Shown here piece by piece: positions 8,413 to 8,449 of a stretch of 64,000 nucleotides of DNA (its first letter is position 1; the number at the start of each line of letters is the position of its first letter). The DNA lies in assembly GCF_016026235.1 (NCBI RefSeq), contig NZ_CP065613.1; one strand, 5' to 3'. The notes beneath the pieces are model-generated. The model did not search any database, was not told the DNA's origin, and saw only the letters and a program-made list of their open reading frames with translations. This DNA comes from Escherichia coli. GTDB lineage: Bacteria > Pseudomonadota > Gammaproteobacteria > Enterobacterales > Enterobacteriaceae. The position numbers and the translations under genes are program-made.

Positions 8413-8449
8413 CTGTATATACTCACAGCATAACTGTATATACACCCAG
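8413..8449 (+). promoter_or_regulatory. Two tandem LexA (SOS) boxes in the lexA promoter
   Basis: ctgtatatactcacag (8413-8428) and ctgtatatacacccag (8434-8449), both CTG-N10-CAG, 9-45 bp upstream of the lexA ATG. Confidence 0.9.

What the first reader, a model, noticed from the sequence alone, without database searches (positions are those of the whole stretch)
8413..8449. Tandem LexA operators upstream of lexA-dinF
Two consensus SOS boxes 5 bp apart, immediately upstream of lexA with dinF 18 bp downstream, reproduce the autoregulated lexA-dinF operon. Textbook, but useful as an anchor for the SOS regulon in this window.
Basis: established knowledge. Interest (0 to 1): 0.2.

Follow-up and report, generated by a model that had tools for sequence, protein, structure and literature searches.

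The report
Known tandem LexA operators before lexA
This is the well-studied pair of LexA repressor binding sites on the E. coli lexA promoter, so it is ordinary; but the second site is not an exact match as claimed, and dinF most likely starts 72 bases after lexA, beyond a leaky terminator, rather than 18.

Summary
The window is E. coli chromosome. Two LexA boxes sit at 8413-8428 (CTGTATATACTCACAG) and 8434-8449 (CTGTATATACACCCAG), 5 bp apart, ending 8 nt before the lexA ATG (8458). They are real. A PWM built without them scores 18.7 and 18.2 bits, against 11.6 for the next non-SOS site. The box 1 16-mer is identical in 74 of 79 Enterobacterales loci while the flanks drift. Published mutagenesis shows that both operators repress.

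1. The boxes are not both exact.
2. "dinF 18 bp downstream" is the legacy K-12 start (ATG 9085). RefSeq, the DinF family model and cross-species conservation favour ATG 9139, a 72-nt gap.

ATG 9085 lies inside a strong hairpin with a U-run (9077-9112). That hairpin is conserved with compensatory changes. Published long-read data map a lexA-only transcript end within it (window 9109), with partial read-through into dinF.

The third SOS box in the window (25326-25345) is the uvrA/ssb operator.

Verdict: already known, low interest.

The parts
8395..8400 (+). Putative -35 hexamer TTCCAA of the lexA promoter, 17-nt spacer to the -10
   Evidence: Read from the sequence. The GGTTCC core is conserved, with mean identity 0.84 for 8393-8400 across 79 distinct sequences. 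The simple promoter scanner missed it because it matches only 8 of 12 consensus positions. The assignment is an inference.
8418..8423 (+). -10 hexamer TATACT, lying inside box 1
   Evidence: It lies at -13 to -8 relative to the TSS at 8431. PMC7440846 and PMC9210283 show the upstream operator overlapping the -10.
8411..8430 (+). Box 1, the upstream LexA operator ('operator II' of Kozuch 2020): 20-mer TGCTGTATATACTCACAGCA, 16-mer core 8413-8428, spanning -20 to -1
   Evidence: It is the only exact CTGT-N8-ACAG match in the window and scores 18.72 bits on the PWM. The 16-mer is identical in all 74 loci that have two boxes, and the region is identical to K-12. Published mutagenesis shows that it represses.
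8429..8431 (+). lexA transcription start site
   Evidence: Dcm target cytosines published at -116, +17 and +45 (PMC9210283) map to 8315, 8447 and 8475, giving +1 = 8431. The SMRT-Cappable-seq TSS at 4257086 maps to window 8429. The two sources differ by 2 nt.
8432..8451 (+). Box 2, the downstream LexA operator ('operator I'): 20-mer AACTGTATATACACCCAGGG, 16-mer core 8434-8449, spanning +2 to +21
   Evidence: It fits CTG-N10-CAG but not CTGT-N8-ACAG, and scores 18.21 bits on the PWM. Mean identity across Enterobacterales is 0.89. Published EMSA and mutagenesis apply to this sequence.
8446..8450 (.). Dcm site CCAGG (extended form CCCAGGG) overlapping the right arm of box 2; it is the reason box 2 reads CCAG rather than ACAG
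   Evidence: locates it. PMC9210283 reports stationary-phase-specific 5mC here, no effect on LexA binding or lexA expression, and hindrance of Dcm by LexA. A CCWGG overlaps the box 2 right arm in 48 of 74 loci, and 25 of 74 have an exact ...ACAG instead.
8449..8453 (+). Shine-Dalgarno-like G-run (GGGGG) for lexA, abutting box 2
   Evidence: Read from the sequence. The leader 8450-8457 has mean identity 0.92. The function is inferred.
8458..9066 (+). lexA CDS (202 aa) with an intact self-cleavage apparatus (Ala84-Gly85, Ser119, Lys156)
   Evidence: TIGR00498 scores 289.5 bits. RefSeq annotates WP_000646078.1 here. The residues were read from the translation.
9077..9112 (+). Intrinsic-terminator-like hairpin (13-bp stem, 9077-9106) followed by a U-run (TTTGTTTTT), with a published transcript 3' end at 9109; it acts as a leaky terminator between lexA and dinF
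   Evidence: Found by the terminator scan. Folding gives -24.9 kcal/mol, z -5.0. SMRT-Cappable-seq reports a lexA-only transcript from 4257086 to 4257766, which maps to window 9109, with read-through reads. Covariation: 8 of 9 pairs carry compensatory changes and 92% of cells pair, against 76% in shuffles. Against: Term-seq called no 3' end here.
9139..10464 (+). dinF CDS, preferred start (441 aa, MATE transporter); the legacy start is ATG 9085 (459 aa), inside the hairpin stem
   Evidence: This is the RefSeq/PGAP start. NF007690 scores 910.9 bits and aligns to residues 19-458 of the long ORF. The homologous ATG is conserved in most dinF-bearing loci, while the extension is stopped in L003 and frameshifted in L002. 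K-12 b4044 uses the long form.
8372..8387 (+). Third CTG-N10-CAG (CTGGTTTATTGTGCAG) at -59 to -44; not a functional LexA site
   Evidence: It scores 7.27 bits on the PWM, below the training minimum of 13.3 and within the null range. It is present only in Escherichia and a few Enterobacter loci. It is probably the 'putative operator III' shown to be non-functional in PMC7440846; that correspondence is my inference.
25326..25345 (-). The other SOS box of the window: the shared uvrA/ssb operator (TACTGTATATTCATTCAGGT on the - strand)
   Evidence: It has the top PWM score in the window, 19.73 bits. It lies between uvrA (22420-25242, -) and ssb (starting about 25496, +).

Best explanation
The feature is the autoregulatory control region of E. 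coli lexA.

Shown:
- Two LexA operators flank the transcription start (8429-8431). Box 1 covers -20 to -1 and contains the -10 hexamer TATACT. Box 2 covers +2 to +21 and abuts the ribosome-binding G-run.
- A LexA dimer on either site blocks RNA polymerase, and published mutagenesis shows each site represses about equally.
- After DNA damage, RecA-stimulated self-cleavage of LexA (cleavage site and catalytic residues intact here) frees the promoter. This is classical negative autoregulation.
- Box 2 departs from ACAG because its right arm doubles as a Dcm site (CCCAGGG). Published work finds this methylated in stationary phase but without regulatory consequence.

Partly shown, partly inferred:
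- Downstream, lexA is followed 10 nt after its stop codon by a strong hairpin and U-run where some transcripts end (window 9109).
- The remaining transcripts read through into dinF, whose real start is most likely ATG 9139, 72 nt after lexA.
- So dinF is SOS-controlled through the lexA promoter but is attenuated relative to lexA.
For: Sequence and statistics.

Operator conservation:
- The box 1 16-mer is identical in 74 of 74 two-box loci.
- Box 2 has mean identity 0.89, against 0.46-0.67 in the flanks.
- The 68-nt promoter stretch is identical in 5332 of 5425 complete E. coli genomes.
- The region is identical to K-12 over both boxes.

Published function:
- PMC7440846: two functional operators, a third site inactive.
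- PMC9210283: LexA IC50 of about 140-160 nM at this promoter, and the Dcm site at +17.
- PMC6590174, PMC4481165 and PMC3739934: dinF co-transcribed and co-induced with lexA.

Proteins: TIGR00498 and NF007690.

Terminator:
- Hairpin of -24.9 kcal/mol, z -5.
- Long-read TTS at 4257766. In M9, of 45 reads from the TSS, 10 end at the TTS and 20 pass through. In rich medium, of 135 reads, 22 end at the TTS, 86 end within 50 bp downstream and 10 pass through, with a median read-through of 1406 nt.
- The lexA-dinF spacers are more structured than their shuffles in 49 of 50 loci, median z -2.83.
- Compensatory changes support the stem.

dinF start.
Against: Nothing argues against the operator assignment.

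On the terminator and dinF start:
- Term-seq in MG1655 (PMC7815308) lists no 3' end at the hairpin in three conditions, although it calls a lexA-internal end at 4257185.
- The K-12 curated record and UniProt-style annotation keep the 459-aa DinF, and the long ORF is open in this window and in K-12.
- Long-read counts are small and subject to size and degradation bias.
- The two sources for the TSS differ by 2 nt (8429 against 8431).
- My PWM was built from 22 published sites recalled from memory rather than taken from a curated file.
Confidence: 0.95

Rival explanations
1. The two operators work as a cooperative unit. Their 21-bp (two helical turns) centre-to-centre spacing would put two LexA dimers on the same DNA face, and dimer-dimer contacts would sharpen the autoregulatory switch.
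For: The spacing is 21 bp here and in 62 of 74 loci. In vitro repression curves have Hill slopes of about -2.4 to -2.6 (PMC9210283). The idea is long-standing in the literature (cited in PMC7440846; PMC5152588 listed).
Against: PMC7440846 compared a matched single-operator promoter with the wild type and saw no difference in induction, kinetics or fitness. It states there is no evidence of inter-dimer cooperativity. The spacing drops to 20 bp in Erwinia and 19 bp in Pantoea, Tatumella, Mixta and Rosenbergiella, which breaks strict helical phasing.
Confidence: 0.15
2. dinF begins at ATG 9085, 18 nt after lexA (459-aa protein), so the two genes are tightly coupled. The hairpin would then be merely coding sequence or an mRNA-stability element.
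For: The ORF is open from 9085 in this window and in K-12, and the K-12 curated record b4044 uses this start. Term-seq did not call a 3' end at the hairpin.
Against: The extension carries an in-frame TAA in L003 and is frameshifted in E. albertii, while the stem is kept. The ATG homologous to 9139 is conserved across genera, and a CAGG motif lies about 9 nt upstream of it in several of them. The DinF model starts at residue 19, and PGAP annotates 9139. The stem shows compensatory changes, not codon-like changes. A transcript 3' end maps 24 nt after ATG 9085.
Confidence: 0.1
3. The matches are chance, or reflect promoter constraint only: box 1 would be conserved because it contains the -10 hexamer, not because LexA binds it.
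For: The exact pattern CTGT-N8-ACAG is expected 0.54 times per window by chance. The -10 hexamer lies inside box 1.
Against: The -10 accounts for only 6 of the 16 invariant bases. The CTG and CAG arms outside it are equally invariant, and box 2, downstream of the TSS, is also conserved. PWM scores are reached in 2 of 200 null windows. Published operator point mutations abolish repression without changing promoter strength in a lexA deletion strain.
Confidence: 0.01

Closest known systems
E. coli K-12 lexA promoter with operators I and II (Brent & Ptashne 1981; Little et al. 1981; Kozuch et al. 2020, PMC7440846; Lewis et al. 2021, PMC9210283)
   Same: The sequence is identical over both boxes, the -10, the TSS, the Dcm site and the leader; the 122-nt comparison shows one difference, upstream at 8359. 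The gene order plsB-dgkA-lexA-dinF-yjbJ-zur is the same.
   Different: Nothing functional differs. The 1981 papers are cited from my own knowledge and via the later papers; I did not read them here.
Other multi-operator SOS promoters (recN with three boxes; colicin genes with overlapping boxes)
   Same: More than one LexA box on a single promoter (mentioned in PMC7440846; the Salmonella table in PMC8072944).
   Different: At lexA the two boxes are separate, 1 nt apart as 20-mers, and of near-equal strength. Here the regulated gene is the repressor itself.
uvrA/ssb shared SOS box
   Same: It uses the same motif class and sits in the same window (25326-25345), with a comparable PWM score of 19.7 bits.
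   Different: It is a single box serving two divergent genes.
Leaky intra-operon intrinsic terminators described genome-wide by SMRT-Cappable-seq (Yan et al. 2018, PMC6131387), for example prs-dauA and dapA-bamC
   Same: A hairpin and U-run between two co-directional genes, a mapped TTS with partial read-through, and different read-through fractions in M9 and rich medium.
   Different: The lexA-dinF case is only a row in a supplementary table, labelled 'novelTTS'. None of the lexA or dinF papers I opened discusses it. It also overlaps the legacy dinF start codon.

Membership tests
Gammaproteobacterial LexA operator (SOS box, CTG-N10-CAG / TACTG(TA)5CAGTA) | Palindromic CTG...CAG arms 10 nt apart with an AT-rich core | tested here: met
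   Both boxes match CTG-N10-CAG. Box 1 also matches CTGT-N8-ACAG, and box 2 does not. They have 5 and 6 mismatches to the 20-nt consensus.
Gammaproteobacterial LexA operator (SOS box, CTG-N10-CAG / TACTG(TA)5CAGTA) | Score within the range of experimentally known E. coli sites and above the genomic background | tested here: met
   The boxes score 18.7 and 18.2 bits. The training sites range from 13.3 to 27.5 bits, the next non-SOS site in the window scores 11.6, and 2 of 200 null windows reach 18.2. The matrix was built from sites recalled from memory, with lexA's own boxes left out.
Gammaproteobacterial LexA operator (SOS box, CTG-N10-CAG / TACTG(TA)5CAGTA) | Position overlapping the core promoter or TSS of the regulated gene | tested here: met
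   Box 1 spans -20 to -1 and box 2 spans +2 to +21 relative to the TSS at 8431 (using positions published in PMC9210283).
Gammaproteobacterial LexA operator (SOS box, CTG-N10-CAG / TACTG(TA)5CAGTA) | Conserved in orthologous promoters more strongly than the flanking DNA | tested here: met
   Mean identity to the window is 1.00 for box 1 and 0.89 for box 2, against 0.46-0.67 in the flanks, over 79 distinct sequences. 74 of 79 loci keep both boxes.
Gammaproteobacterial LexA operator (SOS box, CTG-N10-CAG / TACTG(TA)5CAGTA) | LexA binds the site, and mutating it relieves repression | not testable with these tools
   This is published for the identical K-12 sequence: PMC7440846 and PMC9210283.
LexA repressor (TIGR00498; S24 peptidase) | Full-length match above the curated cut-off, plus the Ala84-Gly85 cleavage site and the Ser119/Lys156 dyad | tested here: met
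   The match scores 289.5 bits against a cut-off of 110.95, covering residues 1-199. The residues were read from the translation.
DinF MATE transporter (NF007690) | Equivalog match above the cut-off and an N-terminus consistent with the model | tested here: met
   The match scores 910.9 bits against a cut-off of 409. Model positions 1-440 align to residues 19-458 of the long ORF, which corresponds to the 9139 start.
lexA-dinF operon (co-transcription from the lexA promoter) | Same strand, no recognisable internal promoter, and transcripts spanning both genes | tested here: inconclusive
   The genes share a strand, and no promoter-like site was found on the + strand in 9066-9139. Read-through reads from the lexA TSS have a median length of 1406 nt in rich medium. 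RNAP occupancy rises and expression is correlated across both genes. However, a terminator lies between them, and a Rho-dependent region lies inside dinF. No transcript data exist for this strain.
Intrinsic (Rho-independent) terminator | GC-rich stem-loop immediately followed by a U-run | tested here: met
   The stem has 13 pairs, 8 of them G-C, followed by TTTGTTTTT. Folding gives -24.9 kcal/mol, z -5.0.
Intrinsic (Rho-independent) terminator | Transcript 3' ends map in the U-run in vivo | tested here: inconclusive
   SMRT-Cappable-seq places a TTS at 4257766, which maps to window 9109, in both M9 and rich medium. Term-seq (PMC7815308) lists none there.
Intrinsic (Rho-independent) terminator | Structure conserved through compensatory substitutions | tested here: met
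   8 of 9 pairs carry double changes. The covariation score is 0.625 against 0.294 in shuffles (0 of 500 reach it), and slid controls pair in 31-56% of cells against 92%.

The most novel reading that the evidence does not exclude
The lexA-dinF 'operon' may really be lexA plus a conserved, condition-sensitive leaky terminator that meters how much DinF is made per LexA transcript. Read-through looked higher in M9 than in rich medium. Under this reading the K-12 reference start of dinF (459 aa, '18-19 bp gap', often cited as operon evidence) is a misannotation that hides this element.
Probability: 0.4. Interest if true: 0.3.

Novelty: already known. Interest (0 to 1): 0.1.

Why it matters
The operators themselves are textbook and add nothing new; they are useful only as an anchor. 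Together with the uvrA/ssb box at 25326-25345 they are the only sites in the 64 kb that score as LexA boxes.

Three small corrections do matter for annotation and modelling:
1. A strict CTGT-N8-ACAG scan is both non-specific and insensitive for SOS boxes.
2. Box 2's deviation is the known Dcm site.
3. The lexA-dinF junction is a 72-nt spacer with a conserved leaky terminator, not an 18-nt gap. Operon predictors and expression models that treat the pair as tightly coupled rest on a doubtful start codon.

Tried and rejected
1. I looked for a published heterology-index matrix or box list in the library. None gave sequences, so I built a PWM from 22 sites recalled from memory, leaving out the lexA and uvrA/ssb boxes.

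2. I first assumed the window was collinear with the best-matching record, NZ_CP065615.1, which placed the third SOS box inside uvrA. A direct comparison showed that the window lacks that strain's IS5 insertion in qorA and its IS1 near tyrB. I corrected the coordinates, and the box is intergenic.

3. I considered the third CTG-N10-CAG at 8372-8387 as an extra operator and rejected it. Its PWM score is 7.3 bits, it is poorly conserved, and the literature reports that a putative upstream operator III is inactive.

4. I tried to count E. coli genomes carrying the stop-containing spacer variant of L003. There was no megablast match, so L003 is probably a cryptic Escherichia lineage labelled E. coli, and no population frequency could be obtained.

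5. I sought further 3'-end datasets (PMC9023263, PMC12259150, PMC6061677, PMC8848933). None has supplements held as text.

6. The promoter scanner did not recover the lexA promoter because it matches only 8 of 12 consensus positions. The promoter was placed from published positions instead.

Full report
**What the window is.** The 2.7 kb around the finding matches 5,425 of 5,426 complete E. coli genomes and is 100% identical to strain FDAARGOS_943. The deposited annotation gives the order plsB(-), dgkA, lexA, dinF, yjbJ, zur(-), the same as K-12 MG1655. The window is not that strain throughout: it lacks that record's IS5 insertion in qorA and its IS1 near tyrB.

**The observation.**
- Box 1 is CTGTATATACTCACAG at 8413-8428 and box 2 is CTGTATATACACCCAG at 8434-8449. 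CATAA lies between them, and the centres are 21 bp apart.
- Box 2 ends 8 nt before the lexA ATG at 8458.
- The lexA ORF (8458-9066) scores 289.5 bits against the LexA equivalog model, whose cut-off is 110.95. It retains Ala84-Gly85, Ser119 and Lys156, read from the translation.
- The claim that 'the boxes are exact' fails for box 2. That pattern alone is not significant: 0.54 matches are expected and 42 of 100 shuffles have at least one.
- As 20-mers the boxes differ from TACTG(TA)5CAGTA at 5 and 6 positions.

**Is it more than chance?** Yes.
- Allowing 3 mismatches to CTGTATATATATACAG gives three matches against 0.08 expected, and 0 of 100 shuffles reach that.
- I built a symmetric PWM from 22 published E. 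coli sites, recalled from memory, with lexA's own boxes and the uvrA/ssb box left out. It scores 18.72 bits for box 1, 18.21 for box 2, and 19.73 for a site at 25326-25345. The next best site in 64 kb scores 11.56.
- Null 64-kb sequences have a maximum of 11.9 ± 2.3 bits, and only 2 of 200 reach 18.2.
- The third site lies between uvrA (22420-25242, -) and ssb (starting about 25496, +) and is the shared uvrA/ssb operator.
- A third CTG-N10-CAG at 8372-8387 scores 7.3 bits and is not a site.

**Phylogenetic footprint.** A scan of one genome per species with LexA returned 80 Enterobacterales loci.
- In 74 of the 79 usable loci there are two boxes just upstream of lexA, and the box 1 16-mer is identical in all 74.
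- Mean identity to the window is 1.00 for box 1, 0.89 for box 2, 0.84 for the -35 region and 0.92 for the leader. It is only 0.46-0.67 in the flanking and spacer DNA.
- Box 2 varies inside. Its last five bases are CCCAG in 31 loci, AACAG in 23 and ACCAG in 17.
- The gap between boxes is 5 bp in 62 loci, 4 bp in 4 loci (three Erwinia and one Pantoea sp.), and 3 bp in 8 loci (Pantoea, Tatumella, Mixta, Rosenbergiella).
- Five loci have a decayed or missing box, and they include insect-associated bacteria: an Enterobacteriaceae MAG (L040), two Photorhabdus (L061, L064), Candidatus Pantoea persica (L077) and Arsenophonus nasoniae (L081).
- Within E. coli, the 68-nt promoter and operator stretch is identical in 5,332 of 5,425 genomes.

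**Mechanism, from the literature on the identical K-12 sequence.**
- Lewis et al. 2021 (PMC9210283) place Dcm target cytosines at -116, +17 and +45. These map to 8315, 8447 and 8475, so +1 is 8431. SMRT-Cappable-seq gives 4257086, which maps to 8429.
- Box 1 therefore spans -20 to -1 and contains the -10 hexamer TATACT (8418-8423). Box 2 spans +2 to +21.
- Kozuch et al. 2020 (PMC7440846) inactivated each operator. Both repress about equally, a putative upstream operator III is non-functional, and a matched single-operator promoter behaved like the wild type. They found no evidence of inter-dimer cooperativity and called the role of the double operator unclear. The 3, 4 and 5 bp spacings I see across clades fit independent binding.
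- The CCAG arm of box 2 is part of the Dcm site CCCAGGG. It is methylated specifically in stationary phase, has no effect on LexA binding or lexA expression, and LexA hinders Dcm there.

**The dinF claim.** 'dinF 18 bp downstream' reproduces the K-12 curated start (b4044, 459 aa) and the longest ORF (ATG 9085). Five lines of evidence favour ATG 9139 and a 72-nt gap:
1. RefSeq/PGAP annotates 9139, giving 441 aa.
2. The DinF equivalog model (441 positions, 910.9 bits) aligns to residues 19-458 of the long ORF.
3. In most of the 50 loci with dinF downstream, the codon homologous to 9139 is a start codon. The upstream extension is closed by stop codons or lacks a start codon in most of them.
4. 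The extension fails even in the closest relatives. A genome labelled E. coli (L003) has an in-frame TAA, and E. albertii (L002) has a frameshift.
5. A CAGG motif lies about 9 nt upstream of 9139 and recurs in several genera.

**What lies in the spacer.** ATG 9085 sits in the 5' arm of a 13-bp hairpin (9077-9106) followed by TTTGTTTTT. Both the scan and folding (-24.9 kcal/mol, z -5.0) mark it as terminator-like.
- Across genera the lexA-dinF spacers are more structured than their dinucleotide shuffles in 49 of 50 loci. The median z is -2.83, and 35 loci fall below -2. Many have a hairpin plus T-run of unrelated sequence.
- In 12 roughly alignable Enterobacteriaceae spacers, RNAalifold finds a 9-pair helix with compensatory double changes at 8 pairs.
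- 92% of cells pair, against 76% in shuffles (0 of 500 shuffles reach it) and 31-56% when the partners are slid. The covariation score is 0.625 against 0.294.
- Experimentally, SMRT-Cappable-seq of MG1655 (PMC6131387, Supplementary Data 1) lists a transcript from 4257086 to 4257766 that fully covers only b4043, labelled 'novelTTS'. The 3' end maps to window 9109, inside the U-run.
- In M9, of 45 reads from the TSS, 10 end at the TTS, 6 end within 50 bp downstream, and 20 pass through (median read-through 567.5 nt).
- In rich medium, of 135 reads, 22 end at the TTS, 86 end within 50 bp downstream, and 10 pass through. The median read-through of 1,406 nt is enough to clear dinF.
- Against this, Term-seq (PMC7815308) calls no 3' end there in three conditions. 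It does list a lexA-internal end at 4257185 (window 8528) and a Rho-dependent region at 4257949, inside dinF at window 9292.
- My reading is that dinF is SOS-controlled by read-through from the lexA promoter past a leaky terminator. This agrees with co-induction (RNAP ChIP-chip), with a lexA/dinF expression correlation of 0.86, and with a lower 'on' threshold and narrower spread for dinF.
- No promoter-like site was found on the + strand in the spacer.
- dinF follows lexA in Enterobacteriaceae, Erwiniaceae, Serratia, Rahnella, Hafnia and Edwardsiella. In my sample it does not in Yersinia, Photorhabdus, Xenorhabdus, Proteus, Providencia, Dickeya or Pectobacterium.

**Verdict.** The finding is real and correctly interpreted, but it is fully known and among the best-characterised bacterial promoters. 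The only mildly fresh point is the conserved leaky terminator that overlaps the legacy dinF start codon. It is visible in public data (the PGAP start and a supplementary 'novelTTS' row) but is not discussed in the lexA and dinF papers I could read. Interest is low.

Noticed in passing
window 9077-9112 and 9085 vs 9139: The legacy K-12 dinF start codon lies inside the stem of a conserved terminator-like hairpin. Papers cite the resulting '18-19 bp gap' as operon evidence (PMC4481165, PMC3327717), whereas RefSeq uses a start 54 nt further downstream.
   Followed up: yes
window 8528 (K-12 4257185) and 9292 (K-12 4257949): Published Term-seq lists an RNA 3' end 70 nt inside the lexA ORF that is not Rho-dependent, and a Rho-dependent termination region inside dinF (PMC7815308 supplements). 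Their significance is unknown.
   Followed up: partly
window 25326-25345: The shared uvrA/ssb SOS box (TACTGTATATTCATTCAGGT on the - strand) has the highest LexA PWM score in the window, 19.7 bits. No other site in the 64 kb exceeds 11.6 bits.
   Followed up: yes
window 11664-12656: A single 330-aa DUF2713 ORF occupies the place where K-12 has two genes, yjbL (84 aa) and yjbM (235 aa). Its C-terminal 237 aa are only 85% identical to K-12 YjbM, which is unusually divergent for E. coli. The K-12 pair may be a split gene.
   Followed up: partly
window ~526-3626: By the annotation of the near-identical record, an IS110-family (ISSso6-like) transposase sits inside a SopA-family pseudogene between malM and ubiC.
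   Followed up: no
window 47202-47688: A tandem array of 4.3 copies of a 113-bp unit, 95% matching, lies in the yjcO-gltP intergenic region. The unit is built of REP-like palindromes and looks like a BIME-type repeat.
   Followed up: partly
L004-L007 (Citrobacter), about 2610-2740: The Citrobacter lexA-dinF spacers are about 120-130 nt and carry REP-like palindromes (for example GCCGGATAAGACGTTTGCGTCGCCATCCGGCA) in place of the simple hairpin and U-run seen in Escherichia.
   Followed up: no
L040, L061, L064, L077, L081, upstream of lexA: One of the two operators is decayed or missing in five loci, several from insect-associated bacteria: box 2 CTG is lost in an Enterobacteriaceae MAG (L040), box 1 reads CAT instead of CAG in two Photorhabdus (L061, L064), box 1 reads CTA..TTACAG in Candidatus Pantoea persica (L077), and Arsenophonus nasoniae (L081) has a single box.
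   Followed up: no
E. coli genomes, hit H36 (NZ_CM135146.1) and the summaries: In strain 43905 the lexA-dinF spacer query is split into two places, with 57% coverage at the first, which suggests an insertion at the terminator. One of the 5,426 genomes has no match at all, and one carries the locus on a record typed as a plasmid.
   Followed up: no
L003 (NZ_JAATUR010000012.1, labelled E. coli SCPM-O-B-8794): Its lexA-dinF spacer differs from the window's at five positions and finds no megablast match in 5,426 complete E. coli genomes. It is probably a cryptic Escherichia lineage carrying the E. coli label.
   Followed up: no
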